From NCBI GenBank assembly GCA_038087875.1, contig CM075989.1, positions 20,896,001 through 20,960,000 on the forward strand: DNA of 64,000 nt, in the 5' to 3' direction. The notes beneath the pieces are model-generated. The model was not told where the DNA came from. It did not search any database and saw only the letters and a program-made list of their open reading frames with translations. Of the stretch, positions 7,758-55,900 are shown one piece after another; position 1 is the first letter of the stretch, and every line of letters starts with the position of its first letter. Source of the DNA: Malacoraja senta. Its lineage: Eukaryota. Position numbers and translations under genes: made by a program.

Positions 7758-10355
7758 CTCCTCTCCCTCTCTCACCTGCCCATTAACTTCTCTTTGATAC
7801 TTTTGTCACTTATCTGCATCATCAGGTAATTTACTGTGAGCAACTAACACAGCAGCACATCGGTGGGATGTGGGAGGGAACTGGAGCTCCCAGGGTAAAT
7901 CCATGAGGAATGAGAGAGAGAGTTTACAGTCCACATGGAAAACATCCATGAGAAGGATCAAATCAGGTCCTGATGCACATAACGGAACATCTGGGTATAC
8001 CCATTTTATCTGGATTTTGCTGAGCATCATCTTTTATTTTAGTGTTTTTAGCTTTAGAGTTATAGTACAGGAACAGGCCCTTCAGCCCAGAGAATACAAA
8101 CTGACCACTGATTACCCATTCACACCAGTTCGATGTTGTTCCACTTTCTCATTTACTGACTACGCACGAGGGGCAATTTACCAGTTAAGGTACAAACCCG
8201 CACGTCTTTGAGATGTCGATGGGAAACCCGAGCACCCGGAGGAAACCCACCTGGTCGCAGGAAGAACGTGCAAACATCACACAGACAGCAACCTGAAGTC
8301 AGGATCGAACCCTGGTCTCTGGTGCTGTGAGGCAGTAACTCTACCAGCTGTGCCACTCTGCCTCCCTTATGTTCTTTTTCTTTTTTGAAAGCTTTTCTGT
8401 TTTGGGCTTTTTTGAAAGCTAATCCTCCATCCTCATGAACTGCATCCGGTGTTCCCGGAAGGGCCTCCTGTTCATCGGCGAGACTAAAATGTTGCATCCA
8501 GCGCTTCCTACCCAAGGCCAAACTTAGGAGCTTCTCTGAACAGAGAATATCAGGCCCATGACCAGAGAGCGTCAATCATCACATCCCAGCTAATAGGGAA
8601 GTAGGGGTGTTGGGAATGAAGAAGTCCAGCAGACTGAGGGGTGTGGTGGAGTAGAGAGGACAGGGGGGAACTCAGTGAAGATAGACACAAAATGCTGGAG
8701 TAACTCAGCGGAATTCTGTGGAATTCTCTGCCTCAGAGGGCGGTGGAGGCCGGTTCTCAGGATGCTTTCAAGAGAGAGCTAGATAGGGCTCTTAAAAATA
8801 GCGGAGTCAGGGGATATGGGGAGAAGGCAGGAACGGGGTACTGATTGGGGATGATCAGCCATGATCACATTGAATGGCGGTGCTGGCTTGAAGGGCCAAA
8901 TGGCCTACTCCTGCACCTATTGTCTATTGTCTATTGTCTAACAGGCAGCATCTCTGGACTGAGTTGAATTTAGTTTAATGTCACGTGTACCGAGGTACAG
9001 TGAATGGCTTTTGTTACGTGCTAACCAGTCAGTGGAAATACTATACATGATTACAATCGAGCCATCCCCAGTGTACAGATACGTGATAAAGGGAATAACG
9101 TTTAGTGCAAGATATGTTGCCCCGGGCATTCTCAATTAGATCAGCTCTTTAACAATATTTCACGAGCATCATAAAAGAAAAATAGGCACTGGAAACAACA
9201 TAATTTCAATTGCATAATACTAACAGCATTGTGCAATTGAATCTACAGGAAGTAATATCCTAACAATGGAAACATTCAGCGTAAAGCAGGGGTTATCTCT
9301 GCACGGTTGGCATTGCGTGCTGGTAAACCATAGTTGTTGCCATGCCACGCTCAACGAGTTTTTCTTTGTCTCCAAAATACATGAATTTCTTGCATTGAAT
9401 AATCAAATGCTTCAATGCCAACAGATGTCAGCATCTATTTAGTGAGATCAAATATACTTGAATTTGCAGAGAGGGGAAAATCAAAGCTCATGTACTGGGT
9501 CACTTATTAAGCTGCAATCCATGTGCATGTATGTCTGGATTTTCTCTCTTCGCAAAGCACATCAGCTCAGTATTTCTATGGCCAAATGTGAGAAACCTGA
9601 TCTAACCAATGCCCACAAGGACATGAGTAAGAAGGAACTGCAGAAGCCGGTTTAAACCGAAGATAGACACAAAAAGCTGGAGTAACTCAGCATTTCTGGA
9701 GAGAAGGAATGGTTGACGTTTCAGACTTGAAGAAGGGTCTCGACCCGAAACATCACCCATTCCTTCTCTCCAGAGATGCTGCCTGTCCCGCTGAGTTACT
9801 CCAGCATTTTTGTGTCTATCCTCGTGTTTTGATTACCACTTGGTGGTTTTGATTAAACATTCTCGGAAACCAATTGCACTGTACATACTGTACCTGGCTG
9901 TGATCTTAACTGCTGCACAAAGAGCAGCTGACATTAAACAACCATGGCATTGAGAAATAAAAATGGAAACTGCTGGGAATGTTCCTTTCTCACCTTACTC
10001 CAGCTTTGTGTCAGGGCCGTTTGTTGTTGGAGCCACGTGTAGTCAAGATATCTGTGGCAGCCTGTGGGCTTAGAGTTGATACTGGTCACTAACTTAAACC
10101 ATCACCTGGAGGTAGAGAAAAAGTACAGAAGGGTGAAAACACACAGCACCAGATTCAGGGACAGGTTCTTCCCAGCTGTTATCAGGCAAATGAATCACCC
10201 CACCACAACTAGAGACCAGTCCTGAACTAATATCTACCTTTTTGAAGTCCCTCCGACTAGCCTTGATCAGACTTTGCTGTCTTTATCTTGCACTAAACTT
10301 GATTCCCGTATCTTGCGTCTATACACTGTAAATGGATCGATTGAAATCATGTGTT

Positions 10356-10423
10356 GGCCCTATAGCAGAAGCGTTCACTTCGCGGGGGCTGGAAACTGGA
10401 AGTATCCCGAGCTAATTCTGCTA
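10356..10423 (+). ncRNA. HDV-like (CPEB3-like) self-cleaving ribozyme motif
   Basis: P1 GGCCCU/GGGGCU with G1-U wobble; P2 UAGCAGAA/UUCUGCUA; P3 GCG/CGC; L3 UUCACUU; imperfect P4; J4/2 CUAA. Confidence 0.8.
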
Positions 10424-10557
10424 CCTCCATCATCTATTGCAACAAGTGCATCAATTGATGGCTCCCGCTGATTGTCGCCGGAAGCTTGCGTCCTTTTCAG
10501 GACGGACGATGACCGCAAGGTCAACATTTGAAACAAGACGGACACGAAAAGAAGAAG
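10356..10557 (+). mobile_element. Short non-autonomous retroposon with 5' HDV-like ribozyme and (GAA)n tail
   Basis: 11-bp TSD AATCATGTRTT (10345-55 and 10558-68); GAA tail; interrupts an older LINE 3' tail fragment. Confidence 0.75.
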
Positions 10558-11737
10558 AATCATGTATTATCTTTCTGCTGACTGGTCAGCATGAAACAAA
10601 AGCTTTTCACTGTACCTCGGTACACGTGACAATAAACTAGACTGAATTGAGAAGTCATCATGTAGATCTTGTGAAAACAAAGTCTAAATTAGGATCAAAA
10701 AGATCATCAAATTATATTTCCCTGTCAGGCATTTGTCTGTCTGACGGAGGACAAGTCGCCAATTTCACAATCAAAAAGTCTCACTGAATTTTCCTGGAAA
10801 AACAGCCCTTCTTTGATCGAGAGATGTTGCTGTGGTTTCTATTTCAATTCCTGTTTGAACGGACTTAGATTGTTTACTGTGATTCATTTGGCATTCCCTC
10901 CCTTATTGACTGACTCAGAGTTTTCAATAAATACGCTGCTCATTCAAATCTATCAAAATAGTCCGGGAGGGAGAGAGAAAATGCCCAGTTAAAACAGGCA
11001 CTGAATTTGGACTTTAGAGATACAGTGCAGAAATGGTCTCTTTGGTCCACCGAGTCCGTGCTGACCAGCGATCCCCATACTCTAACACTATCCCACACAC
11101 TGGGGACAATTTTATAATTTTTACCATAACCAAGTAACCTACAAACCTGTTTAAGAAAGAACTGCAGATGCTGGAGAAATCAAAATTAGACAAAAATGCT
11201 GGAGAAACTCAGTGGATGAGGCAGCATCTATGGAGCGAAGGAATAGGTGATGTTTCGGGTCAAGACCGTTCTTCAGACTGAACCTATAAACCTGTGTGTC
11301 TTTGGATCCCGAGCTGAAATGTCACCTAACCGTGGCTCTCCATAGATGCTGCCTGACTTGTTGTGTTCCTCCAGCACTTTGTGTCTTTTTGTACATGAAC
11401 CAGCATCTGCAGTTCCTTGCTTAAACCATCTGTTGACACAACTCTACCACTGCACAAAAAGCTGGAGTAGCTCAGTGGGTCAGGCAGCATCTCTGGAGAA
11501 AAGGAATTGGTGACGTTTCGGGTCGAGATCCCTTTTCAGATTATGTACTGACAATAAAACGCCATTTTGACTTGCCACAACATAACAGCGTTGTAAACAC
11601 AATACATGGAGATAATATATAATTTTAAAAAATCAATAATTTAATAACCCCAAAACGCCCAAAGTCTTTAGTGCAACCAAAGACGTTAATGTTCTGCAGT
11701 GTTCAAGAGCCTGATGGTTGTAGGGAAGAAGTTGGCA

Positions 11738-18799: not shown

Positions 18800-20500
18800 A
18801 TCACGGATTACAATGGGAAAAACAGGTGCACTGTTCAGCATACCGCTTCGCTCCCGGACGAGCTTAACACCTTCTATGCCCGGTTCGATGCAGACAACAC
18901 ATCACCCACCATGAGTCCACAGGTGTGCAGGGGGACTACCTCACTGACCCTACAAACGGCAGACGTGAGGCGGTCCTTCAAAAAAGGTCAATGATCGCAA
19001 AGCTCCAGGGCCGGATGGTATTCCAGGGCGGGCTCTCAGGGCGTGCGCTGATCAACTGGCGGAGGTGTTCACCAACATCTTCAACCTCTCCCTGAGTCAG
19101 TCTGTGGTTCCCACCCCCTTCAAAGCATCCATCATTGTTCCTGTTCCAAAGAAACCAGTACTCTCCTGTTTAAATGATTGCCGTCCTGTCGCACTGACAT
19201 CAGTCATCATGAAGTGCCTCGAGCGACTAGTCAAAACTCACATCTGCTCCTCGCTCCCTGACACCTTGGACCCTCTTCAGTTTGTGTATAGTCCCAACAG
19301 GGCCACGGACGATGACATCACCATGGCAACTCACACTGCTCTCACCCACCTGGACAAAGGGAATACATATGTGAGAATGCTCTTCATTGACTACAGCTCA
19401 GCATTCAATACTATCATTCCCTTAAAACTCGTCCCCAAGCTCCTAGATCTTGGACTGGAGACCTCCATCTGTGGCTGGATATTCGACTTCCTGACGGGCA
19501 GGCCCCAGGTGGTGAGAATTGGCAGCCACACCTCTTCCTCACTGATCCTCAACACAGGCGCACCACTGGGCTGTGTGCTCAGTCCTCTCCTGTACTCCCT
19601 GTTCACGCACGACTGTACTGCTAAGCACAGCTCCAACATCATCTTAAAGTTTGCTGACGATACGACCATCCTGGGCCTCATCACAGACAATAATGAGACG
19701 GCCTACAGAGAGGAGGTAAAGGCACTAAACAGCTGGTGCCAGCAAAATAACCTCTCTCTCAGTGTCAGCAAAACTAAAGAGATGATCGTGGACTACAGGA
19801 GACAACAGGGGAGTGGACACCTCCCCATCCACATCGGCGATGCTGAGGTTGAAAGGGTCAGCAGCTTCAAGTTCCTCGGTGTGCACATCACTGAGGACCT
19901 CTCCTGGACACTGCACACGGACACAATAACAAAGAAAGCCCGCCAGCGGCTCTTTTTCCTGAGAAGACTGAGGAGGTTTGGCATGGACGCCAGCATCCTC
20001 TCAAACTTCTACAGTTGCACCATCGAGAGTCTGCTGACGGGCTGCATCACAGTCTGGTACGGGAACTGTTCTGCCCACAGCCGCCAATCACTACACAGAG
20101 TGGTGATGGCGGCACAGCAAATCACTGGCAACTGTCACCCAGACGTTCAGGACATTTTCCACCGGCTGTGCCTGCAGAAGGCACACAGCATCATCAAGGA
20201 CCACAGCCACCCAGCACATAGACTGTTCTCCTTGTTACCGTCAGGCAGACGATACAGGAGCAGGGCTGCACGTGCCACCAGACTTAAGAACAGTTTTCAT
20301 CATCATGCCATCAGGCTTCTGAACTCATAAACACATCATATATGTTGATTATTTTATTTATTATTGTCTTTTACCTACCAATGTCACTTTTATCTTATCT
20401 TTTTTTACCTTAATTTTATCCTTGTAATATCATTGCTGAGGTGACCCGTTGTATTGTCAAACACATTTCATTGTACCGTTGATCCTGTGTTAACCTACAT
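18800..20500 (+). mobile_element. 5'-truncated Rex1/Babar-type LINE with an open 421-aa RT ORF (19065-20330)
   Basis: [45 protein letters not shown] and KFADDTT motifs; AT-rich 3' tail. Confidence 0.88.
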
Positions 20501-28554: not shown

Positions 28555-30670
28555 AAGTTCAAGTTCAAGTGAGTTTATTGTCATGTGTCCCTGATAGGAC
28601 AATGAAATTCTTGCTTTGCTTCAGCACAACAGAACATAGAAGGCATTGACTACAAAACAGATCAGTGTGTCCATATATCATTATATAAATATATACACAC
28701 ATGAATAAATAAACTGATAAAGTGCAAATAACAGATAATGGGCTATTAATATTCATAGTTTTGTCCGAGCCAAGTTTAATAGCCTGATGGCTGTGGGGAA
28801 GTAGTTATTCCTGAACCTGGTCGTTGCAGTCTTCAGGCTCCTGTACCTTCTACCTGAAGGTAGCAGGGAGATGAGTGTGTGGCCAGGATGGTGTGGGTCC
28901 TTGATGATACTGCCAGCTTTTTTGAGGCAGCGACTGTGATAGATCCCCTCGATGGAAGGGAGGTCAGAGCCGATGATGGACTGGGCAGTGTTAACTACTC
29001 TTTGTAGTCTTTTCCTCTCCAGGGCGCTCAAGTTGCCGAACCAAGCCACGATGCAACCGGTCAGCATGCTCTCTACTGTGCACCTGTAGAAGTTAGAGAG
29101 AGTCCTCCTTGACATACCGACTCTCCGTAATCTTCTCAGGAAGTAGAGGCGCTGATGTGCATTCTTAATAGTAGCATCAGTGTTCTCGGACCAGGAAAGA
29201 TCTTCAGAGATGTGCACGCCGAGGAATTTAAAGCTCTTGACCCTTTGAACCATTGACCCATTGATATAAATGGGACTGTGGGTTCCCATCCTACTCCTTC
29301 CAAAGTCCACAATCAGTTCCTTGGTTTTGCTGGTGTTGAGCCAGGTTATTGTGCTGGCACCATTTGGTCAATCGGTCAATCTCACTTCTATACTCTGACT
29401 CGTCCCCATCAGTGATACGTCCCACAACAGTGGTGTCATCAGCGAACTTGATGATGGGGTTCGCACTATGACCGGCTACGCAGTCATGAGTATAGAGTGA
29501 GTACAGCAGGGGGCTGAGCACGCAGCCTTGAGGTGCTCCCGTGCTGATTGTTGTCGAGTCTGACACATTTCCACCAATACGAACAGACTGTGGTCTGAGA
29601 ATGAGGAAGTCGAGGATCCAATTGCAGAGAGATGCGCAGAGACCCAGTTCTGCGAGTTTGGTAACCAGCTTGGAGGGGATGATTGTATTAAATGCCGAGC
29701 TGTAATCGATGAATAACAGCCTGACATATGAGTTTTTGTTGTCCTAGTGGTCCAGAGCGGAGTGGAGAGCCAGCGAGATCGCATCCACCGTTGATCTGTT
29801 GTGGCGGTAAGCGAACTGCAGTGGGTCCAGGTTTTTGTCGAGGTAGGAGTTGATTTGCACCATGATCAACCTCTCAAAGCACTTCATCACCGCAGGCGTT
29901 AGTGCCACAGGTCGATAGTCATTGAGGCACGTCACCTTGCTCTTCTTGGGCACTGGTATGATTGATGCCCTTTTGAAGCAGTTGGGAACCTCAGACCTCA
30001 GAAGTGAGCGGTTGAAAATGTCCGTTAAAACCTCCAGCCAGTTGGTCCGCACAGGTTTTAGAACACGACCAGGTATACCATCAGGTCCAGGCGCTTTTCG
30101 AGGGTTCACCCTTCTGAAGAATTTCCTGACGTCGGCCTCTGTGACTGAGACTGAAATACCATCACAGCGAATGGGAGCTCGGGAAGGCACATCGGTGTTC
30201 TCCATATCAAAGCGTGCGTAAAACGCATTGAGCTCATCAGGGAGTGATGTTTCGCCGACATTCGAGCTGCCTCCTGATTTTGCCTTGTAGGAGGTGATTG
30301 CATTCAGGCCCCGCCACAGCTGCCGAACATCTGTCTCATCCTCCAGTTTGGAGCAGAATTCCCTTTTGGCCTTTTTGATGGCCTTACCAAGGTCGTATCT
30401 GGACTTCTTGTAGACCACTGTATCATCAGACATGGTCTTCAGAAGAGTGCGGATCTAAAAGTTCATCCAAGGTTTCTGATTGGGAAACACTCGGAAGGTT
30501 TTTGTAGGGATGCAGTCCTCTACACATTTCTTAATGAAGTCTGTAACGACTGTGGCGTATTCGTTCAAGTCCGTTGCCGGGTCCTTGAACATTGCCCAGT
30601 CGACAGACTCCAAACAGTCCTGTAGTTGTTCCTCTGCCCCCGCCGACCAGCTCTGCACTGTCCTCACCTC
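28555..30670 (-). mobile_element. Rex1/Babar-type LINE, 5'-truncated and frameshifted
   Basis: ORF pieces [56 protein letters not shown]; 3' tail with short repeats. Confidence 0.88.
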
Positions 30671-44000: not shown

Positions 44001-47000
44001 CATCCTAAACACCAATTGCAAGTTAATCTATAAATATTGCTAAAAAGTATTGGATTAGGTATGTTATGAACTGCTTTACAGACTAATTGCCAGAAAATCT
44101 GGCTGCAAAGTATTAATTCAAATTCAACATAGCCTCTTAAGAGTTTCCTCAAAACAAATTAAACCAATGACACCCATTTATGTGCGTTAAGATTGCAATA
44201 TTTACATTTTGCGGAGCAATGTCAGTACTTCACAGCTAATTAGTTATTTTAGTACGTGAAGCAGCCCAGCATGGGAACAGGCCCTTCGGCCGCCCACAAT
44301 GTCTGCGTCGAACATGATCAATTTTATCTGCTTCAACATAATCCATTCTTCTTCATTCCCTGCATATCCATGTGCCTATCCAAAAGTCTCTTAAATGCTA
44401 CTATCATATTTGCCTCCACCAACACCCCTGGCAGCATATTCCAAGCACTTGCCACCAAAAAAAAACTTGCCCTGCACATCTACTTTAAATTGTGGCCCTC
44501 TCACTTTAAAGTTGTGCCCTCTAATAGTTGATATTTTCCAATTTGGGTAAAAGGTTCTGCATACCCGCAACTTCCAGTATTTCAGATTTTGTGGACTAAA
44601 CTGTAGTATCTGCAAGTTGGAGATTTATATTAATTCTTAAACCTGAATGTACAATTATAAAGCCAAACCTTTAGAATCAGATCAGTAATTAATAATTGCA
44701 AAATCTATTCACTTTTGAGTTTATCACAATTGATTTTTGTTTTAGGTTGATCTACTTGCAAGACAACAGCACAGATGTTCTAAAATCCTGTTGACAGCTG
44801 TTTAAATGTTTCCAACAATGTAATACAAAAACAAATTAACTTACCAAGAAATATGGTGCATTAACATCAATTTGACTTGTTACAGAGAATTCCCTCTTCA
44901 CAACTTGACTTGTGCCACAAGGTCGCTCAGTATTGCTGTCACCCAATACTTCACACTGCCATATTTTCCACTGAAGGATGTGACCAATGGCCTGTTTTAG
45001 ACAATTATAAACTACATTGTAGAATCTTTGCTGACATTTGTTTTTGTGAATTTAAAAATCACTTTTTTTGAATAGATCACTTACCCTTGTGGAAGATGAA
45101 ACTGAATGGAAACTCATGTTTTCCAGGTTGTAATGTGAAGTATCCTTCATCATCTGTTAAGAAAGAACAAAGTTGTACAACATATCAATAAAGTGAAAGG
45201 GCATTTGCAAGAAATCAAAAACAAACATTATTTATATACAAACTGGGAGATAGTAATTTGAAAAGCCAAATTAATGTATTTATTGAGGGGGGGGGGTTGG
45301 GGGAGAGAGAGAAAGAGGATAGTAAGGACATAATTTAGTCATGGTGCTTCAGTCACAATAAGGGCAAGTGCAAAGATTTGCTCAACTCACTGCAATCTTT
45401 CTTCAAAAAAAAGTCATCTATTTTAATTAGATTTTCCTTCCCCCACAACTAACTAGCTTATTTCTGAACACTTCAACCTGTGTCTCTGCTTTATTGACCA
45501 GATCCATGTAGATTGGGTAATTGCTTTACAGAATAACTCAACAGAATTGATTAAATTTCAATATACTTGCTTTTCAATATACCTGCACGAAATTCAGCAG
45601 AATGTTTTAAAATTGAGTTGAGATTATAGAACTCAGTCCAAAGGAAGATCTCAAGCTTCCCCACCTGACCTCTACGTTGGCCTCATGTTCCAAATCCACT
45701 TAAAAGTTCCCAACTGTAGTTTGGGAAACATCTCATTTTCCAATTTGACATGTTACATTTAACATAGCCTGAATTTAACATTCAGAAAGCCAGGTTTTCC
45801 AGGTTACGTCAGTATTGGCTAATTCTGCTGAAAACTTATTGTACTGAAACATCAGGTGTTTCCCCCCCATCATAGATACTGCCTGTCCTGCTGAATATTT
45901 CTATCATTGTTATTATTTGAGATTTAGAGCATCTACACTTGGCTTTTCAATGATACATTTCTGTTTCTGTGACAGATAGTGTTCACTATTTTTCAAACAT
46001 TTTCAAAGTTACCCTGGGAGTTGCAACAAATATTTCCCAAACTTGCACGTAGAAAGCTGCAAATCAATGGTCCACTGATTCACATTCTGAACTATAGAGT
46101 AGCTTATTGAAATGGAAATAAACTGCAAAATATTGTGCCAAAGGTAAAAGCACTGAGTGCCTTTTGTATGGAACAAATGATGACAGTGGTTGTTGAGGAA
46201 GAGGGAAATTAAGCACAATTCCTTTCTTGAAAAGAGATCTCTGAAAATTCTGTAGGTTCTTTTTATCTGGTTAAAGAAGTGTAACTAGGACATGAGGCAC
46301 ACAAGCTTCATTAGTTAGCATTGTCTCACTAGTTAATATGACTTTCTTCAAAGTACTCATTCAGCAGGGGGTAGCAGATGCATGCTCTAATCTAATATAG
46401 CCTGCACATTGATACTGACAGGCTTCTGGTGGTGGTCAGGGTGAGGGTGTCAGACTTTTTAGAGAGTATGGTATTGATAGAGACTATCCCCCCCACCCTC
46501 CCAAAAAATATGAAGCGGAGATTCAACACAATTACCTTTACATAAAGTGATCTCTCAAAAAACTAATACTTCTGTGCCTTATAAGTTCTACGAATCACAT
46601 GTGTCTCATTAGTCTCTGTGGTTAATATTACTTTCCCCAAAGTACTGATTCAGCAGGAAGAGAGCAGATCCATGTTCTGGTTTAATATAGCCTGAACATG
46701 GATATGGACACCGTGGGGAGGCTGGTGAGAGAAGGGGGGGAGGGAAAGATAGAGGGGAGGAGAGGAGAGGTGAAGTGAGGAGGGGGGTGGGGGGGAGACA
46801 AAAGGATGGAGGGACAGGAGGGGGATAGAGAGAAGATAGGATAATGAGGGAATGGGTGATGGGGGGGGTGGCAGGTTGGGGGGGGGGTGGCAGGTTGGGG
46901 GGGGTGGGTGGCAGGTTGGGGAGGGGGGTGGGCAGGTTGGGCGGTGGCAGGTTGGGTGGGTGGGTGGCAGGTTGGGGAGGGGGGTGGGTGGCAGGTTGGG

Positions 47001-47982
47001 GAGGGGGGTGGGTGGCAGGTTGGGGAGGGGGGTGGGTGGCAGGTTGGGGAGGGGGTGGGTGGCAGGTTGGGATGGGGGTGGGTGGCAGGTTGGGGATGGG
47101 GGTGGGTGGCAGGTTGGGGAGGGGGTGGGTGGCAGGTTGGGGAGGGTGGCAGGTTGGGGAGGGGGGTGGGTGGCAGGTTGGGGAGGGGGTGGGTGGCAGG
47201 TTGGGGAGGGGGGTGGGTGGCAGGTTGGGGAGGGGGGTGGGTGGCAGGTTGGGGAGGGTGGCAGGTTGGGGATGGGGGTGGGTGGCAGGTTGGGGAGGGG
47301 GGTGGGTGGCAGGTTGGGGAGGGGGTGGGTGGCAGGTTGGGGATGGGGGTGGGTGGCAGGTTGGGGAGGGGGTGGGTGGCAGGTTGGGGAGGGTGGCAGG
47401 TTGGGGAAGGGGGTGGGTGGCAGGTTGGGGAGGGTGGCAGGTTGGGGAGGGGGTGGGTGGCAGGTTGGGGAGGGGGGTGGGTGGCAGGTTGGGGAGGGGG
47501 TGGGTGGCAGGTTGGGGAGGGGGTGGGTGGCAGGTTGGGGAGGGGGGTGGGTGGCAGGTTGGGGAGGGGGTGGGTGGCAGGTTGGGGAGGGGGGTGGGTG
47601 GCAGGTTGGGGAGGGGGGTGGGTGGCAGGTTGGGGAGGGGGGTGGGTGGCAGGTTGGGGGGGGGGGGTGGGTGGCAGGTTGGGGGGGTGGGTGGCAGGTT
47701 GGACGGTGGGGCAGCTCCCTCCCCCGTACCTGCGGCCCGCCGCACCACCTGCCGCTGCTGCAGGTACACCACCTCATCGCGGTGCCGCGCCGCCGCTGTT
47801 GCCAGGCCGTCGCCCCCCCAGTGGACGCGGGCACAGCCCTTGGCCTCCAGCCGCAGCTGGATGACAGGCAGCCGGACGCCGGTCTCCAGCAGCAGCTGCC
47901 CCGACACCCGCTCCCCGCTCGAGTAGCTGCTCAGATCCCGGCCGTCCAGCACGATGCCGAAACTCTTCAGCCGGACGCCCAT
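41019..47982 (-). CDS. ARRDC4: Arrestin domain-containing protein 4 (alpha-arrestin), 8 coding exons, ~402 aa if two 1-bp deletions are corrected
   Basis: Spliced translation gives MGVRLKSFGIVL...LQPGKHEFPFSF...PLVTSFSGKYGSVKY...GCWLFTSGPISLSAKIER...GEAIPIYAEFENCSSRLIMPKAAIFQTQTYLA...LPEQPEAPPNYADVVSEE...IQEFRFQPPPVYSEVDP, closely matching recalled vertebrate ARRDC4. All introns are GT-AG; two PPxY motifs. Confidence 0.9.
41234..41388 (-). CDS. ARRDC4: ARRDC4 exon 7 (155 nt), both PPxY motifs
   Basis: APPNYADVVSEEDLARQF...FAYIQEFRFQPPPVYSE; AG/GT borders. Confidence 0.92.
41670..42430 (+). mobile_element. Old degenerate Penelope-like GIY-YIG fragment in ARRDC4 intron 6
   Basis: QCGLHYKVETKHRL...HFNF...GLLHY resembles GIY-YIG 'CGLLYIGETKRRL'; degenerate terminal modules flank it. 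Confidence 0.55.
42985..43147 (-). CDS. ARRDC4: ARRDC4 exon 6 (163 nt)
   Basis: VYVHIPGSKKLMLELPIVIGTIPYNGFGSRTSSISGHFGLDMSWLQLALPEQPE; AG/GT borders. Confidence 0.93.
43348..43604 (-). CDS. ARRDC4: ARRDC4 exon 5 (257 nt)
   Basis: GEAIPIYAEFENCSSRLIMPKAAIFQTQTYL...IIRVEYSLA|GTAAGT; within ORF 43324..43629. Confidence 0.93.
43690..43792 (-). CDS. ARRDC4: ARRDC4 exon 4 (103 nt)
   Basis: ttttcag|ASVSKSIEKTIGCWLFTSGPISLSAKIERSGFCN G|GTAAGT. Confidence 0.92.
44845..44991 (-). CDS. ARRDC4: ARRDC4 exon 3 (147 nt as assembled; apparent 1-bp deletion)
   Basis: Acceptor aaacag, donor GTAAGT; PLVTSFSGKYGSVKYWVTAIL / ERPCGTSQVVKREFSVTSQIDVNAPYFL in two frames. Confidence 0.88.
45085..45153 (-). CDS. 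ARRDC4: ARRDC4 exon 2 (69 nt as assembled; apparent 1-bp deletion)
   Basis: Acceptor ttaacag, donor GTAAGT; DDEGYFTLQPGKHEFPFSF, then the frame slips (HLPQG lies in another frame). Confidence 0.88.
46866..47702. repeat. G-rich minisatellite in ARRDC4 intron 1, unit ~GGGTGGCAGGTTGGGGAGGGGGT
   Basis: About 35-40 tandem units of ~17-24 bp, directly visible. Confidence 0.97.
47730..47982 (-). CDS. ARRDC4: ARRDC4 coding exon 1 (253 nt)
   Basis: Kozak gccATGG; arrestin-N start (YSSGERVSGQLLLE...LEAKGCARVHW); donor G|GTACGG, phase 1. Confidence 0.88.
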
Positions 47983-48029
47983 GGCCGGGGTGGGGGGCGA
48001 GGGCCCCGCATAGACCACCGCCCACACCG

Positions 48030-48340
48030 GCTCCTCTCCTCCTTCCCTCCTTCCCTCCTTCTCTCTCTCTCCCACTTCTCACTCTTGACCTTTGCTCCTT
48101 CTCTTTCCCTCTTTCTTCTCTCCCTCTCCTCCTTCCCCCCTTGTTCTCCTCCTCTCCCTCCTTCTCTTTCTCTTCTTCTCTCATTCACACCTCCCCACCT
48201 CCCCACATTCTCCTCTGTCCTCCTTCGCCTTCTCCCCTTCCCTTCTCTTCCTTTCCCTTCTCTTTATCTCCCCACCCCTTCCTCTTTCTCCTTTTGTCTT
48301 CTCCCCCTTCACCCCTCCTTCACCCCTTCTTTACCGCCCT
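48030..48340. repeat. Polypyrimidine/polypurine low-complexity tract
   Basis: Almost pure C/T on the plus strand. Confidence 0.9.
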
Positions 48341-48367
48341 GTGGTGAGGTGACTGCAGGCAGGCAGC

Positions 48368-48369
<2 letters not shown>

Positions 48370-48400
<31 letters not shown>
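48370..48400. repeat. (GT)n microsatellite followed by poly-G
   Basis: Directly visible. Confidence 0.95.
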
Positions 48401-48403
<3 letters not shown>

Positions 48404-48660
48404 GGGGGGGGGGGGCGGGGAAGCAGCGTGTCGGGTCGAGCTGCGCGGGCGCGGCGCGGCTGATCGGAGCGTGATCACCAATCAGCGGCGGGGACCCGCA
48501 CGTGTACAGCGCCGCCATTGGCGGGCCGCAGGGCAACCCTCCGCACACCGGACCAATGGCGAGCCCGCTCCTTCATGTGCATGGGCCCGGCCAGCCGCTG
48601 GGCCGCCGTTACCCCGGCAACCGCCACTGGGCGCCGCCATTGCTCCCGCCTCTATATATA
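48400..48660 (-). promoter_or_regulatory. CpG-rich ARRDC4 promoter core: three CCAAT boxes, E-box, RFX X-box
   Basis: CCAAT 48478-82, ATTGG 48517-21, CCAAT 48553-57; CACGTG 48499-504; GTTACCCCGGCAAC 48608-21; high CpG density directly upstream of exon 1. Confidence 0.75.
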
Positions 48661-52934: not shown

Positions 52935-55900
52935 ACTTAGAAAGATACTTAGGAGGTGTCAAATGGGATAGTCAAGGACGGAGTTAAAGGGAAAGGGAGT
53001 AAAGGGATAGTTAATGACCCCAGAATTAACGGGAAAGAAAGCTCACAAAGGGATAGGAGAGTATGGCCAAGTGTAGTAGGGATCGATGTGAATGGTGAGA
53101 TGCGTAAAGAATTAAATGTACCGTTTTTGAATGTGCAAAGTATAAGAAGTAAAGTAGATGAGCTTGAGGCTCAGATAGAGGTTGGTAGATATGGCATTGT
53201 GGGGATTACCGAGAATGGTGGCTGCAGGAGGATCGGGTCTGGGAACTTAATATTCAGGGTTATACATCCTATAGAAAGGACAGGCAGGTGGGCAGAGGAG
53301 GGGGGGGGGTAGCTCTCCTGGTGAGGGATGGAATTCAGTCCCTTGCGAGGGAAGACATAGGGACTGACGAGGTAGAGTCACTGTGGATTGAGTTGAGGAA
53401 TTGCAAAGGCAAGAAGACATTAATTGGTGCTATCTACAGACCCCAAATAGTAGCCCGGATGTAGGGTGTAAGTTGCAGCAGGAGTTAAAACTGGCATGTA
53501 ACAAAGGTAATGCCACTGTGGTGATGGGGGATTTCAATATGCAGGTAGACTGGGAAAATCAGGTTGGTTCAGGACCCCAAGAAAAGGAGTTTGTAGTGTG
53601 CTTCCGAGATGGATTCTTAGAGCAGCTTGTAATGGAGCCGACCAGAGAAAAGGCAATTCTGGATTTAGTGTTTTCCAATGAACCAAATTTGATAAGAGAA
53701 CTCGAGGTAAAGGAACCGCTTGGAGGTAGTGATCATAATATGATTAGTTTTAATCTGTAATTTGAGAAGGAGAAGGTTAAATCGGAAGTGGCAGTGATGC
53801 ACCTGAACAAAGGGGATTATGAAGGCATGAGAGGGGAGCTGGCCAAGGTAGCCTGGAAAGGGATACTAGCAGGAATGACAGTGGAACAGCAATGGCAGGA
53901 ATTTCTGGGCATAATCCAGAAGACGCAGGATCATTTCATTCCAAAAAGGAAGAAAGATTCTAAGAGGAGTAGGAGGCAACCGTGGCTGACAAGAGAAGTT
54001 CGGGATAGAATAAAATGAAAAGAAAAGATGTATAACACAGCAAAGAGTAGCCAGAAGCCAGAGGATTGGGAAACTTTCAAAGGACAACAGAAGGAAACAA
54101 AACGGGCAATACGGGCTGAAAAGATGAAGTACGAAGGGGAGCTGGCCAGGAATATAAAGAAGGACAGTAAAAGCTTCTTTAGATATGTCAAGGGAAAAAG
54201 AGTAGCAAAGTCAAATGTGGGTCCCTTGAAGGCAGACACGGGTTAAATTATTATGGGGAACAAAGAAATGGTACTTCGGATCTGTCTTCACTAAGGAAGA
54301 CACAAACAATCTCCCAGAAGTACTGGAGGACAGAGGATCTAAGGGGTTCGAGGAACTGAAAGAAATTTTCATTAGGCGAGAAATAGTATTGGGTAGGCTA
54401 ATGGGACTGAAGGATGATAAATCCCCGGGGCCTGATGGACTGCATCCCAGGGTCCTCAGGGAGGTGGCTCTAGAAATAGTGGACGCATTGGTGATCATTT
54501 TCCAATGTTCAATAGATTCAGGATCAGTTCCTGTGGATTGGAGGATAGCTAATGTTATCCCACTTTTCAAGAAAGGAGCGAGAGATAAAACGGGGAATTA
54601 CAGACCAGTTAGCCTGACTTCGGTTGTGGGAAAGATGCTGGGATCAATTATTAAAGAGGTAATAATGGCGCCTTTGAATAGCAGTAAAAGAATTAGTCCA
54701 AGTCAGCATGGATTTATGAAAGGAAAATCATGCTTGACTAATCTTCTGGAATTTTTTGAGGATGTGACAAGTAAAATGGATGAAGGGGAGCCAGTGGATG
54801 TAGTGTATCTAGACTTTCAGAAAGCCTTTGATAAGGTCCCGCACGGGAGATTGGTGACTAAAATTAGATCACATGGTATTGGGGGTAGGGTGTTGACGTG
54901 GATAGAAAATTGGTTGGCAGACAGGAAGCAAAGAGTAGGAGTGAACGGGTCCTTTTCAGAATGGCAGGCAGTGGCGAGTTGAGTGCCGCAAGGCTCGGTG
55001 TTGGGGCTGCAACTGATTACCATATATATTAATGATTTGGAAGATGGAATTAGGAGCAACACTAACAAGTTTGCGGATGACACAAAGCTGGGTGGCAGTG
55101 TGAACTGTGAAGAGGATGTTAGGAGGTTGCAGGGTGACCTGGACAGGTTGAGTGAGTGGGCAGATGCGTGGCAGATGCAGTATAATATCAATAAATGTGA
55201 GGTTATCCACTTTGGTGGCAAAAACAAGGGGGCAGATTATTATCTCAATGGGGTTAGGTTAGGGGGAGGTACAGCGAGACCTGGGTGTCCTTGTACACCG
55301 GTCACTGAAAGTTGGCGTGCAGGTACAGCAGGCAGTGAAGAAAGCTAATGGAATGTTGGCCTTCATAACAAAAGGATTTCAGTATAGGAGTAGAGAGTTT
55401 CTTCTGCAGTTGTATAGGGCTCTGGTAAGACCACATCTGGAGTATTGCGTACAGTTTTGGTCTCCTAATTTGAGGAAGGACATCCTTTTGATTGAGGCAG
55501 TGCAGCGTAGTTTCACGAGATTGATCCCTGGGATGGAGGGACTGTCAGATGAGGAAAGATTGAAAAGACTAGGCTTGTATTCACTGGAGTTTAGAAGGAT
55601 GAGGGGGGATCTTATAGAAACATATAAAATTATAAAAGGACTGGACAAGCTAGATGCAGGAAAAATGTTCCCAATATTGGGCGAGTCCAGAACCAGGGGC
55701 CACAGTCTTAGAATAAAGGGGAGGCCATTTAAGACTGAGGTGAGAAAAAACGTTTTCACCCAGAGAGTTGTGAATTTGTAGAACTCCCTGCCACTGAGGG
55801 CAATGGAGGCCAAATCACTGGATGGATTTAAGAGAGAGTTAGATAGAGCTCTAGGGGCTAGTGGAATCAAGGGATATGGGGAGGAGGCAGGCACGGGTTA

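What the first reader, a model, noticed from the sequence alone, without database searches (positions are those of the whole stretch)
10345..10568. Tiny retroposon capped by an HDV-like ribozyme closely resembling the mammalian CPEB3 ribozyme
Seen: a 202-bp insert between 11-bp direct repeats (AATCATGTGTT / AATCATGTATT), ending in (GAA)n. Its first base (G10356) starts a nested double-pseudoknot fold: P1 GGCCCU with GGGGCU (10385-90) closing in a G1-U wobble, a perfect 8-bp P2 (10363-70 / 10416-23), P3 GCG/CGC, L3 UUCACUU, an imperfect P4 (10391-10411) and J4/2 CUAA with the candidate catalytic C at 10412. Known: from memory the CPEB3 ribozyme reads CAGCAGAAGCGUUCACGUCGC...GCGAAUUCUGCUG; this copy reads UAGCAGAAGCGUUCACUUCGC...GCUAAUUCUGCUA. 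HDV-like ribozymes process the 5' ends of R2, RTE and Ingi/L1Tc retroelements. Inference: a ribozyme-headed, non-tRNA SINE family whose 5' end is made by self-cleavage, possibly related to the mobile source of the single-copy CPEB3 ribozyme. This copy may be attenuated (L3 G>U at 10379, 6-bp P1, ragged P4).
Basis: partly seen in the sequence, partly recalled or inferred. Interest (0 to 1): 0.92.

Follow-up and report, generated by a model that had tools for sequence, protein, structure and literature searches.

The report
CPEB3-type ribozyme heads small retroposon
A 200-base mobile element whose first 68 bases form a self-cutting RNA of the same sequence family as the mammalian CPEB3 ribozyme belongs to a whole group of jumping genes in this genome, and may show where that mammalian ribozyme came from.

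Summary
Window 10356-10557 is one old, about 10% diverged copy of a roughly 194-bp non-autonomous retroposon ("SINE A", at least 1,200 copies). It lies between 11-bp target-site duplications and ends in (GAA)n. Its first 68 nt fold as an HDV-like double pseudoknot. The window copy scores 31.6 bits on Rfam's CPEB3_ribozyme model, below the cut-off of 35, but 13 of 20 other copies pass it.

The same ribozyme type heads a young 3.1-kb LINE with endonuclease and reverse-transcriptase domains ("LINE D", 56-64 bits). It also heads an older LINE, a second small element ("B", at least 400 copies) and three further families. P1, P2, P3 and P4 differ between families by compensatory changes (covariation 0.308 against 0.131 in shuffles, 0 of 500 shuffles as high).

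Copies of SINE A, B and LINE D mostly begin at the predicted cleavage-site G; for the older LINE only one sampled copy does. SINE A and LINE D share the last 19 nt.

A relative of the LINE on public metagenome contigs carries the same ribozyme.

Self-cleavage and expression were not shown. The host's taxon was not determined. No report of this was found in four searches of the paper library.

The parts
10345..10355 (+). Left target-site duplication (11 bp)
   Evidence: Read. It matches 10558-10568 at 10 of 11 bases. The script finds it, as locus L001.
10356..10557 (+). One copy of the small non-autonomous retroposon 'SINE A' (202 bp here; the family majority is about 194 bp). An old copy with a 9-bp insertion in the body.
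   Evidence: 29 other loci align over the whole element and have unrelated flanks; 89.7% identity to the family majority.
10356..10423 (+). HDV-like (CPEB3-type) ribozyme head. P1 is 10356-10361 with 10385-10390. P2 is 10363-10370 with 10416-10423. P3 is 10371-10373 with 10381-10383. L3 is 10374-10380. P1.1 is 10375-10376 with 10391-10392. P4 is 10396-10400 with 10405-10409. The predicted cut lies just 5' of G10356.
   Evidence: RF00622 at 31.6 bits, E 1.1e-6; own model R1 at 61.5 bits; covariation across families.
10412..10415 (+). J4/2 with the candidate catalytic C at 10412
   Evidence: This alignment column is C in at least 90% of 23 ribozymes, and the A two bases after it never varies. 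It aligns to the C-G-A-A of the CPEB3 model.
10379..10379 (+). Substitution at a nearly invariant G of loop L3; this copy is probably a poor or dead ribozyme
   Evidence: nearly invariant column; other copies carry G there.
10489..10504 (+). Conserved hairpin in the body of the element; role unknown
   Evidence: Present in all aligned copies. Predicted in the fold of a near-consensus copy.
10541..10557 (+). 3' box followed by the GAA-repeat tail. With the two following A's, which also begin the right repeat, it is identical over 19 nt to the 3' end of LINE D. This is the likely recognition and priming site for the LINE's reverse transcriptase.
   Evidence: L078 3093-3107 matches at 100%, extended to 19 nt by eye. 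The same box lies at the 3' end of LINE C, family B and the metagenome LINE.
10558..10568 (+). Right target-site duplication (11 bp, one mismatch)

Best explanation
Window 10356-10557 is a decayed copy of a small non-autonomous non-LTR retroposon (SINE A).

The element has no promoter that I could recognise. Inferred: it is transcribed as part of longer host transcripts. Its first 68 nt then fold into an HDV-like double pseudoknot that cuts the RNA immediately 5' of its own first G. This frees an RNA whose 5' end is the ribozyme itself.

Inferred: the 3' box and GAA-repeat tail are recognised by the reverse transcriptase of a young 3.1-kb single-ORF LINE (LINE D), which has endonuclease and reverse-transcriptase domains. 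Shown: LINE D carries the same kind of ribozyme at its own 5' end and the same last 19 nt.

Inferred: target-primed reverse transcription copies the RNA to its very first base, so new copies keep a complete ribozyme. Shown: copies gain target-site duplications, detected here as 7-15-nt direct repeats.

Shown: the ribozyme belongs by sequence to the family so far known only as the single-copy mammalian CPEB3 ribozyme. In this genome it heads at least two LINE families, two abundant small elements and three more families.
For: Anatomy and repeat status
- establish the element, its copy number and its end repeats.
- 29 of 30 copies start at the G of the terminal P1 pair.

Fold
- On 73 ribozymes (65 distinct) from seven families, 80.5% of cells pair, against 68.6 +/- 0.6% in shuffles (0 of 500 as high).
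- The covariation score is 0.308 against 0.131 in shuffles (0 of 500 as high). It is at most 0.115 when partners are slid by 1-3 columns.
- P2 is a pseudoknot helix that was not part of the model used to align. It pairs in 91.9% of cells, and 5 of its 8 pairs change on both sides.
- P1 has changes on both sides in 5 of 7 pairs.
- The second P1.1 pair switches between C-G (31 rows) and U.U (30 rows).

Family
- RF00622 scores: 13 of 20 SINE A copies at 35.1-42.8 bits; LINE D 56.6-64.2 and LINE C 51.1-59.7; E, F and G 43-51.
- In the whole genome, 39 of 59 scored candidates are over the cut-off, against 0 of 14 control genomes.

Partner
- L078 is a 3.1-kb element between 9-bp duplications that starts at G1.
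- Pfam finds Exo_endo_phos_2 at 36.4 bits and RVT_1 at 116.6 bits.
- Its tail is identical to SINE A's.
- 11 near-full-length and many 5'-truncated copies are 95-99% identical to it. That matches the age of SINE A (mean 97.6%) and of B (96-100%).

Independent source
- Metagenome contigs L116-L118 hold an RT relative (64% identity). A full ribozyme lies about 1,540 nt upstream of the RT match (R1 67.5 bits, RF00622 55.6 bits).
- That element also has a target duplication and the same 3' box.

Precedent
- Ribozyme cleavage at the 5' junction is reported for the R2, R4, L1 and RTE clades (passage of PMC3774820).
Against: No biochemical or RNA evidence exists.
- No RNA run was listed, and the runs laid were contigs that cannot show ends.
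- Any repeat family has a fixed 5' end. The coincidence with the cleavage site is therefore circumstantial, although it recurs in families with different P1 sequences.

The SINE A ribozyme departs from the textbook form.
- P1 has 6 pairs, not 7, and P4 has an internal mismatch.
- Family B closes P1 with G-C instead of the G.U wobble.
- B scores below the Rfam cut-off, at 30.0 and 18.1 bits.

The window copy itself is below the cut-off and mutated in L3.

The body of SINE A (about nt 70-175) matches none of the LINEs examined. Its origin is therefore open. Apart from the ribozyme head, the link to LINE D rests on 19 shared terminal bases.

Nested-only folding is no better than shuffles (z -0.23, z 0.04). 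That is expected for a pseudoknot, but it gives no support.

L078's ORF is broken into at least three frames. An intact LINE copy was not looked for.
Confidence: 0.85

Rival explanations
1. The head is a ribozyme by descent only. The 5' end of SINE A RNA is made by transcription initiation from an internal or upstream promoter, as proposed for the Pr77 region of L1Tc and NARTc, which is both promoter and ribozyme. Cleavage plays no part in the element's life cycle.
For: - No RNA ends were seen.
- Dual promoter and ribozyme heads are reported in trypanosomes (abstract of PMC3383444 in the listing).
- A fixed 5' end is expected of any retroposon.
Against: - No tRNA, 5S or 7SL-like part, which would suggest a Pol III promoter, was found.
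- Families with different P1 sequences start at the base that pairs at the foot of their own P1 (A, B and D in most copies, C in one). A promoter would not explain that.
- Compensatory changes keep P1, P2 and P3 paired between families. That implies selection on the fold in the master copies.
Confidence: 0.08
2. The likeness to the mammalian CPEB3 ribozyme is convergence within the tight constraints of the HDV-like fold, not common descent.
For: - L3, P3, P1.1 and J4/2 are functionally constrained in all HDV-like ribozymes.
- Family B also gives sub-threshold matches to the HDV and F. prausnitzii models.
- P1 and P4 differ between SINE A and the CPEB3 model.
Against: - P2 is not modelled as pairs in RF00622, so it is scored as plain sequence. 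It varies between this genome's own families.
- Even so, the P2 strands of SINE A and of the metagenome LINE match the model consensus. Family E differs in P2 by one compensated pair and also matches in P1, in the unpaired J1/2 and in the 5' half of P4.
- No other Rfam ribozyme family reaches E below 0.07 on any copy.
- Scores of 51-64 bits are far above the curated cut-off of 35.
Confidence: 0.12
3. SINE A is not mobilised by LINE D. It is an internally deleted derivative of a LINE not sampled here, or depends on such a LINE, and the 19-nt match to LINE D's tail reflects shared ancestry of tails only.
For: - The SINE A head is closer to the metagenome LINE's head than to LINE D's. It shares L3, J1/4 and J4/2 with the former.
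- The body matches no LINE examined.
Against: - Searches for a LINE in this genome with a near-identical SINE A head end or tail, using patterns that exclude the SINE's own neighbouring bases, returned only SINE variants and truncated copies. The counts were 7, 3 and 5 hits.
- LINE D is of the same age as SINE A and has at least 11 near-full-length copies.
Confidence: 0.2

Closest known systems
Mammalian CPEB3 ribozyme (Rfam RF00622)
   Same: Same sequence family by Rfam's own criterion: 35-64 bits against a cut-off of 35. Same helices, the same L3 and J4/2 in families D, E and F, and a G.U wobble at the cut site. The U.U plus C-G form of P1.1 is seen in the LINE families.
   Different: - It is multi-copy and sits at the 5' end of mobile elements, not single-copy in an intron of CPEB3.
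- P1, P2 and P4 vary between families.
- SINE A has a 6-pair P1 and a two-pair P1.1.
[quoted passage not shown]
R2 SIDEs: short internally deleted R2 elements of Drosophila (PMC3414825; abstract seen in the listing)
   Same: Small non-autonomous elements that keep the LINE's 5' HDV-like ribozyme and the 3' end needed by the LINE's protein.
   Different: - R2 and its SIDEs insert site-specifically in 28S rDNA. SINE A is dispersed and has ordinary target duplications.
- SINE A's body is not an internal-deletion product of any LINE examined.
- The partner has an N-terminal endonuclease/exonuclease/phosphatase-type domain. That R2 has a different kind of endonuclease is recalled.
L1Tc / NARTc / SIDER elements of trypanosomatids with the Pr77 HDV-like ribozyme (PMC3185411, PMC3383444, PMC4035085; abstracts seen in the listings)
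   Same: An autonomous LINE and its short non-autonomous derivatives share an HDV-like ribozyme in the first 70-80 nt.
   Different: A different host kingdom and LINE clade. That head also acts as a promoter. No sequence likeness to CPEB3 is reported.
HDV-like ribozymes at the 5' end of RTE-clade LINEs of insects and nematodes (Ruminski et al. 2011; paper not held; known here only through the citing passage in PMC3774820, and from recall)
   Same: A single-ORF LINE with endonuclease and reverse-transcriptase domains that has an HDV-like ribozyme at its very 5' end. Cleavage there defines the element's 5' end.
   Different: - Here the ribozyme is of the CPEB3 sequence family and the genome is vertebrate-like in its LINE content.
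- It also heads abundant small non-autonomous elements.
- None of the Rfam families of other HDV-like ribozymes matched.
- RTE-clade membership of LINE D rests on architecture only.
Rex3, an RTE-clade LINE of teleosts (PMC6274825; passages)
   Same: A very short 3' UTR and a tail that begins with GAA units. LINE D's stop codon lies about 22 nt before its GAA run.
   Different: Rex3's tail continues as a tetranucleotide repeat. No ribozyme is reported for it: the search 'ribozyme' plus 'Rex3' listed 6 papers, none with a relevant title or abstract start.

Membership tests
HDV-like self-cleaving ribozymes (structural class) | Nested double pseudoknot: P1, P1.1, P2, P3 and P4 in the canonical order | tested here: met
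   Window copy read. Across 65 distinct ribozymes, 80.5% of cells pair, the covariation score is 0.308 against 0.131 (0 of 500 shuffles as high), and P2 pairs in 91.9% of cells with 5 of 8 pairs compensatory.
HDV-like self-cleaving ribozymes (structural class) | G at +1 forming a G.U wobble at the foot of P1 | tested here: met
   G10356 with U10390. It also holds in families C, D and E. Family B has G-C instead.
HDV-like self-cleaving ribozymes (structural class) | Catalytic C in J4/2, followed by a variable base and A-A | tested here: met
   C10412. The column is C in at least 90% of 23 sequences, and the first of the two following A columns is invariant.
HDV-like self-cleaving ribozymes (structural class) | Site-specific, divalent-metal-dependent self-cleavage giving a 5'-OH product | not testable with these tools
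   No RNA ends were obtainable. An in vitro assay is needed.
Rfam RF00622 CPEB3_ribozyme | Covariance-model score at or above the curated gathering score of 35 bits | tested here: inconclusive
   The window copy scores 31.6 bits, below the cut-off. Its family passes: 13 of 20 copies at 35.1-42.8 bits. Related LINE heads score 51-64 bits.
Rfam RF00622 CPEB3_ribozyme | Single-copy element in an intron of the CPEB3 gene of mammals | tested here: not met
   There are over 1,000 dispersed copies at the 5' ends of retroelements. The gene context of CPEB3 in this genome was not examined.
SINE in the strict sense | Head derived from tRNA, 7SL or 5S RNA with an internal Pol III promoter | tested here: not met
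   ARAGORN found 0 genes in 10200-10700. Rfam at E up to 10 lists no tRNA, 5S or 7SL.
SINE in the strict sense | 3' end shared with a partner LINE; dispersed copies with target-site duplications | tested here: met
   The 19 terminal bases are identical to LINE D. Direct repeats were found at 23 of 30 copies.
SIDE (short internally deleted LINE) | The whole sequence derives from the parent LINE's 5' and 3' parts | tested here: not met
   Only the ribozyme core and the last 15-19 nt match LINE C, LINE D or the metagenome LINE. A closer LINE may exist unsampled.
RTE clade of non-LTR retrotransposons (for the partner LINE D) | One ORF with an N-terminal endonuclease and a reverse transcriptase, about 3.2 kb, very short UTRs and a short-repeat tail | tested here: met
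   L078: 3,110 nt between duplications. Exo_endo_phos_2 scores 36.4 bits and RVT_1 116.6 bits. The ORF starts about 30 nt after the ribozyme and stops about 22 nt before the GAA run. That these features define the clade is recalled.
RTE clade of non-LTR retrotransposons (for the partner LINE D) | Phylogenetic placement of the RT within the RTE clade | not tested
   No reference RTs were at hand. The Atlas and homologue searches give only generic RT names.

The most novel reading that the evidence does not exclude
The single-copy mammalian CPEB3 ribozyme is the exapted head of a retroelement of this LINE/SINE lineage that landed in a CPEB3 intron in an early mammal.

If so, the families found here are the missing outgroups for its evolution. 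The lineage's reverse transcriptase is 52-61% identical to proteins named from arthropods and an annelid. The element may therefore have reached different animal groups by horizontal transfer.
Probability: 0.45. Interest if true: 0.9.

Novelty: new variant of a known kind. Interest (0 to 1): 0.8.

Why it matters
Ribozyme-headed LINEs and their short derivatives are known from flies, trypanosomes and, for RTE, invertebrates. The mechanism itself is therefore not new.

What is new:
- The ribozyme here belongs to the CPEB3 sequence family. The literature describes that family as a single-copy, mammal-only element with no outgroup and no known origin (PMC8233481).
- In this genome it drives a whole radiation: two LINE families, two young small elements with hundreds to thousands of copies, and variants that include one without P4.

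What this makes possible:
- The origin of the CPEB3 ribozyme becomes directly testable.
- It provides a natural series of compensatory variants for structure-function work.
- It adds a class of non-Pol-III small retroposons to vertebrate-type genomes. Such elements can release themselves from any host transcript they are inserted in.

Tried and rejected
Folding
- Nested-only MFE folding of the head and of a whole copy was no better than shuffles. It is uninformative for a pseudoknot.

Hunt for a LINE with a near-identical SINE A head end or tail
- I used patterns that demand the SINE's anchor but exclude its neighbouring bases.
- They returned 7, 3 and 5 hits, all SINE variants, truncated copies or rearranged copies.
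- The window's own CR1-like and L2-like LINEs show no likeness to the element.

RNA evidence
- No RNA holder was listed.
- Four runs guessed to be RNA were laid. They were contigs, probably DNA, and gave no information on starts or ends.

Earlier notes of this scan
- Nothing on this genome or sequence.

Classification and taxon
- The ESM Atlas gave only a generic RT family.
- The taxon of the host could not be determined with the tools, because names are coded. I did not pursue it.

Family E
- This is the family most like CPEB3 in P1 and P4. It is old and low-copy: 5 heads at 79-86% identity. Whether it was a LINE or a small element stays open.

Papers and literature searches
- Ruminski 2011 and Webb 2009 are not held.
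- Four searches found no paper that links CPEB3-type ribozymes to retroelements of vertebrates: 'CPEB3 ribozyme' with 'retrotransposon' and 'HDV-like', with 'RTE', with fish and shark terms, and with terms for evolutionary origin. Subscription journals and repeat databases were not searchable.

Step not run as planned
- A script that located ribozyme ends by typed motifs was not run. The alignment was made from coordinates instead.
Full report
**Observation**

- A 202-bp insert (window 10356-10557) lies between 11-bp direct repeats that differ at one base.
- It ends in a GAA repeat and begins with a G.
  - P1 is 10356-10361 with 10385-10390, with G.U wobbles at both ends.
  - P2 is a perfect 8-pair helix, 10363-10370 with 10416-10423.
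  - P3 has three pairs, L3 seven bases, and P4 is short and imperfect.
  - A C at 10412 opens J4/2.

The Rfam results:
- A scan of the whole window at curated thresholds listed nothing.
- A permissive scan of 10250-10650 gave one real match: CPEB3_ribozyme, 31.6 bits against a cut-off of 35, E 1.1e-6, over the whole model.
- The five other matches had E of 2.2 or more, and none was a tRNA, 5S or 7SL RNA.
- ARAGORN also finds no tRNA.

Ordinary nested folding does not distinguish the head from shuffles (z -0.23). That is expected for a pseudoknot and carries no weight.

**It is a repeat family (SINE A)**

Copy number:
- The 224 bases found 1,985 first-look candidates in the window's own 1.94-Gb genome. 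All 40 scored candidates matched, 39 of them other loci at 88-89% identity over nearly the whole element.
- A 28-base word of the head occurs 1,195 times at up to two mismatches. A 25-base word of the tail occurs 851 times. Each reversed control pattern occurs 0 times.

Ends of the copies:
- In 29 other loci the likeness begins at element base 1 (28 loci) or base 2 (1 locus), and the flanks are unrelated.
- 29 of 30 copies start with G, and 26 share the same first six bases.
- 23 of 30 copies have a 7-15-nt direct repeat at their ends. Two pairs of loci share flanks and are duplicates.

Age:
- These copies are 91.9-99.5% identical to the family majority (mean 97.6%). The window copy is 89.7% identical and carries a 9-bp insertion.
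- The sample consists of the copies most like the window copy, so the mean is not an unbiased age.

The window copy is thus an old, decayed member. It also has a substitution (10379) at an L3 position that is G in at least 90% of the aligned ribozymes.

**The family passes the CPEB3 test**

- Of 20 other SINE A loci, 13 reach Rfam's cut-off for CPEB3_ribozyme (35.1-42.8 bits). They do so although 11 model positions fall on unrelated flank.
- The first G of the element aligns with the second G of the CPEB3 model. P1 therefore has six pairs instead of seven, and it still closes in a G.U wobble.
- The two P1 strands differ from the model by compensating changes.
- P2, P3, most of L3 and J4/2 are nearly the same letters as the model.

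**The partner LINE and further families**

Patterns built to find a LINE with the SINE's exact head end or tail gave only SINE variants. A pattern that kept the ribozyme core but excluded SINE A's P1 gave 21 hits:
- 17 were SINE A copies lacking their first 4-10 bases.
- 3 belonged to a second small element, family B.
- 1 was the truncated 5' end of a LINE, family C.

*LINE C.* L067 holds a 3.1-kb element between 10-bp duplications, with endonuclease-like and RT open frames.
- About 500 mostly 5'-truncated relatives are 89-95% identical to it.

*LINE D.* Following LINE C's 5' end led to LINE D.
- Locus L078 holds a 3,110-nt element between 9-bp duplications. It starts exactly at the G of its own P1.
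- The ribozyme occupies bases 3-77 of the locus. The ORF begins about 30 nt later.
- Pfam finds Exo_endo_phos_2 at 36.4 bits and RVT_1 at 116.6 bits. The first ORF fragment is just under the cut-off for Exo_endo_phos (23.8 against 24.5 bits).
- The stop codon lies about 22 nt before the GAA run.
- The frame is broken at least twice in this copy.
- The last 19 nt are identical to the end of SINE A. BLAST gives 15 of 15, and the rest was read by eye.
- The family has 545 first-look candidates. Of 40 scored, 11 are near-full-length, counting L078 itself (the other ten 95-97% identical). The rest are 5'-truncated at 95-99% identity. This is the classic LINE pattern, and the age matches SINE A and B.

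*Family B.* It has 407 candidates, and 40 scored copies are 96-100% identical.
- It is about 175 nt long, counting its complete 5' end, and has the same 3' box and GAA tail.
- 8 of 10 fetched copies carry the full 5' strand of P1 directly after unrelated flank.

*Whole-genome search with RF00622.*
- 59 candidates were scored. 51 had E of 0.001 or less, and 39 were over the cut-off. The same search gave no match in any of 14 control genomes.
- The fetched places define three more families:
  - E has P1 strands that match the CPEB3 model consensus in two copies (L085 5', L087 3') and a like 5' half of P4. It is old and low-copy.
  - F has a short P4.
  - G has no P4.

*RF00622 scores by family*:

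| Family | Bits |
|---|---|
| D | 56.6-64.2 |
| C | 51.1-59.7 |
| E | 43.4-51.4 |
| F | 45.8-48.2 |
| G | 43.7 |
| B | 30.0 and 18.1 (below the cut-off of 35) |

B also gave sub-threshold matches to two HDV models.

**The fold is supported by covariation**

I aligned 23 ribozymes and built a covariance model with P1, P3 and P4 only. I then aligned all 73 matches in the loci held. The pairs of the full structure were counted with P2 written as a pseudoknot.
- 80.5% of cells pair, against 68.6 +/- 0.6% in shuffles (0 of 500 as high).
- The covariation score is 0.308 against 0.131 in shuffles (0 of 500 as high). It is at most 0.115 when partners are slid.
- P2 was not in the model and so is not favoured by the alignment. 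It pairs in 91.9% of cells. Five of its eight pairs change on both sides; one pair, for example, is C-G in 35 rows, U-A in 16 and A-U in 9.
- P1 has five of seven pairs with changes on both sides.
- P3 has one such pair, seen in family B.
- P4 varies everywhere but pairs in only 60.9% of cells. Its length differs between families, and SINE A is offset in the alignment.

Caveats:
- The rows include 5'-truncated copies, whose P1 columns hold flank. This lowers the P1 figures.
- The rows are related sequences, so the shuffle control overstates significance. The slide control does not have that problem.

The second pair of P1.1 is C-G in 31 rows (SINE A) and U.U in 30 rows (the LINE families). U.U is also what the CPEB3 model has.

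**An independent source**

A scan of public metagenome contigs with LINE D's RT gave 24 loci encoding relatives at 46-88% identity.
- Model R1 finds a complete ribozyme (67.5 bits) in three of them (L116-L118, identical in the ribozyme and alike in the RT match). It lies about 1,540 nt upstream of the RT match, which is the distance expected from LINE D.
- Two more loci hold a 3' half.
- RF00622 scores the L116 ribozyme at 55.6 bits.
- That element also sits between target duplications. It ends in the same 3' box, followed by a different trinucleotide repeat.
- Its head is the closest seen to SINE A's: the same L3, J1/4, J4/2 and P2. Its P1 is that of the CPEB3 model.
- In the other 19 loci no ribozyme was found. 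Many lack enough upstream DNA.

**Mechanism**

Shown:
- The anatomy and the conserved, covarying fold.
- The coincidence of element starts with the foot of P1 in families with different P1 sequences.
- The target duplications.
- The shared 3' box with a LINE of the same age that encodes an endonuclease and an RT.

Inferred:
- The small element has no promoter of its own and is transcribed within longer RNAs.
- The ribozyme cuts 5' of its first G. This is reported for R2, R4, L1 and RTE elements (passage of PMC3774820).
- The LINE's protein recognises the 3' box and GAA tail and copies the RNA to its first base.

Open:
- How the 3' end of the RNA is made.
- Where the body of SINE A (about nt 70-175, with a conserved hairpin at window 10489-10504) came from. 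It matches none of the LINEs.

**Comparison with what is known**

- Small elements that keep a LINE's HDV-like ribozyme and its 3' end are known as R2 SIDEs in Drosophila (PMC3414825) and as NARTc and SIDER in trypanosomatids (PMC3185411, PMC3383444, PMC4035085). I saw only the abstracts of these, in search listings.
- Ribozymes at the head of RTE-clade LINEs were reported by Ruminski et al. 2011. I could not read that paper. I know it only from a citing passage and from memory.
- The element therefore works like a known kind.
- It is not a SINE in the strict sense, since it has no Pol III-type head. It is not a demonstrable SIDE either, since its body is not LINE-derived.
- What differs is the ribozyme's identity. 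[quoted passage not shown] - Here the family is present in over a thousand copies on mobile elements.
- I could not determine the host's taxon. Its LINE content (long CR1-like and L2-like frames in the window) and this copy number do not fit what is described for mammals, but that is an inference.
- Near-identical SINE A words occur in public runs under seven coded organism labels from 12 studies. Some of these may be the source of this genome.
- Four literature searches found no paper linking CPEB3-type ribozymes to retroelements. Subscription journals, Repbase, Dfam and Rfam's own full hit lists were not searchable.

**Verdict**

- The window copy itself is a dead member.
- The family and its LINE relatives are a new variant of a known kind of system.
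- They make the origin of the mammalian CPEB3 ribozyme directly testable.

Noticed in passing
L078 1377-2888 (LINE D reverse transcriptase): The RT is 52-61% identical over 83-97% of its length to proteins named from a psyllid, a springtail and a tubeworm, and up to 88% identical to unnamed ENA proteins. That is high for animals so far apart and may point to horizontal transfer of this LINE lineage.
   Followed up: no
L091, L093, L097, L098 and L013 1871-1925: Family G ribozymes have no P4 at all. P1's 3' strand runs almost straight into J4/2, yet they still score 43.7 bits on the CPEB3 model. One copy lies about 180 nt downstream of a SINE A copy, in L013.
   Followed up: partly
L099, L102 (family B heads): Family B's L3, P1 3' strand and J1/4 resemble the HDV ribozyme itself. 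The matches are sub-threshold: HDV_ribozyme at 26.3 bits against a cut-off of 50, and HDV-F-prausnitzii at 24.8 and 23.1 bits against 44. Its P1 closes with G-C instead of G.U.
   Followed up: partly
L083 (G000 contig 8, about 937.6-937.8 kb): Upstream of a LINE D head lie two further partial copies of the first 30 or so bases of the head in tandem. This may be a product of template jumps at the 5' end during insertion.
   Followed up: no
window 18969-20330 (+), 28753-30454 (-), 52953-55781 (+): Long open frames of L2-like and CR1-like LINE reverse transcriptases; the labels L2-like and CR1-like are my own reading of the translations and rest on no search. They are unrelated to the element studied.
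   Followed up: partly
window 46609-48474, both strands: A proline-rich and glycine-rich repetitive stretch is open in several frames on both strands for over 1 kb. Beside it is an exon-like start with an arrestin-like N-terminus (that label is my own reading and rests on no search), followed by AC- and ACAG-type microsatellites to about 49.3 kb.
   Followed up: no
L010/L016 and L017/L018: These two pairs of SINE A loci share their flanks, 55 kb and 857 kb apart on contig 1. They are segmental duplications, not separate insertions.
   Followed up: no
L014 1502-1695 (near-consensus SINE A): By eye, an ATG about 90 nt into the element opens a frame that stays open to the GAA tail. It may be chance in so short a stretch.
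   Followed up: no
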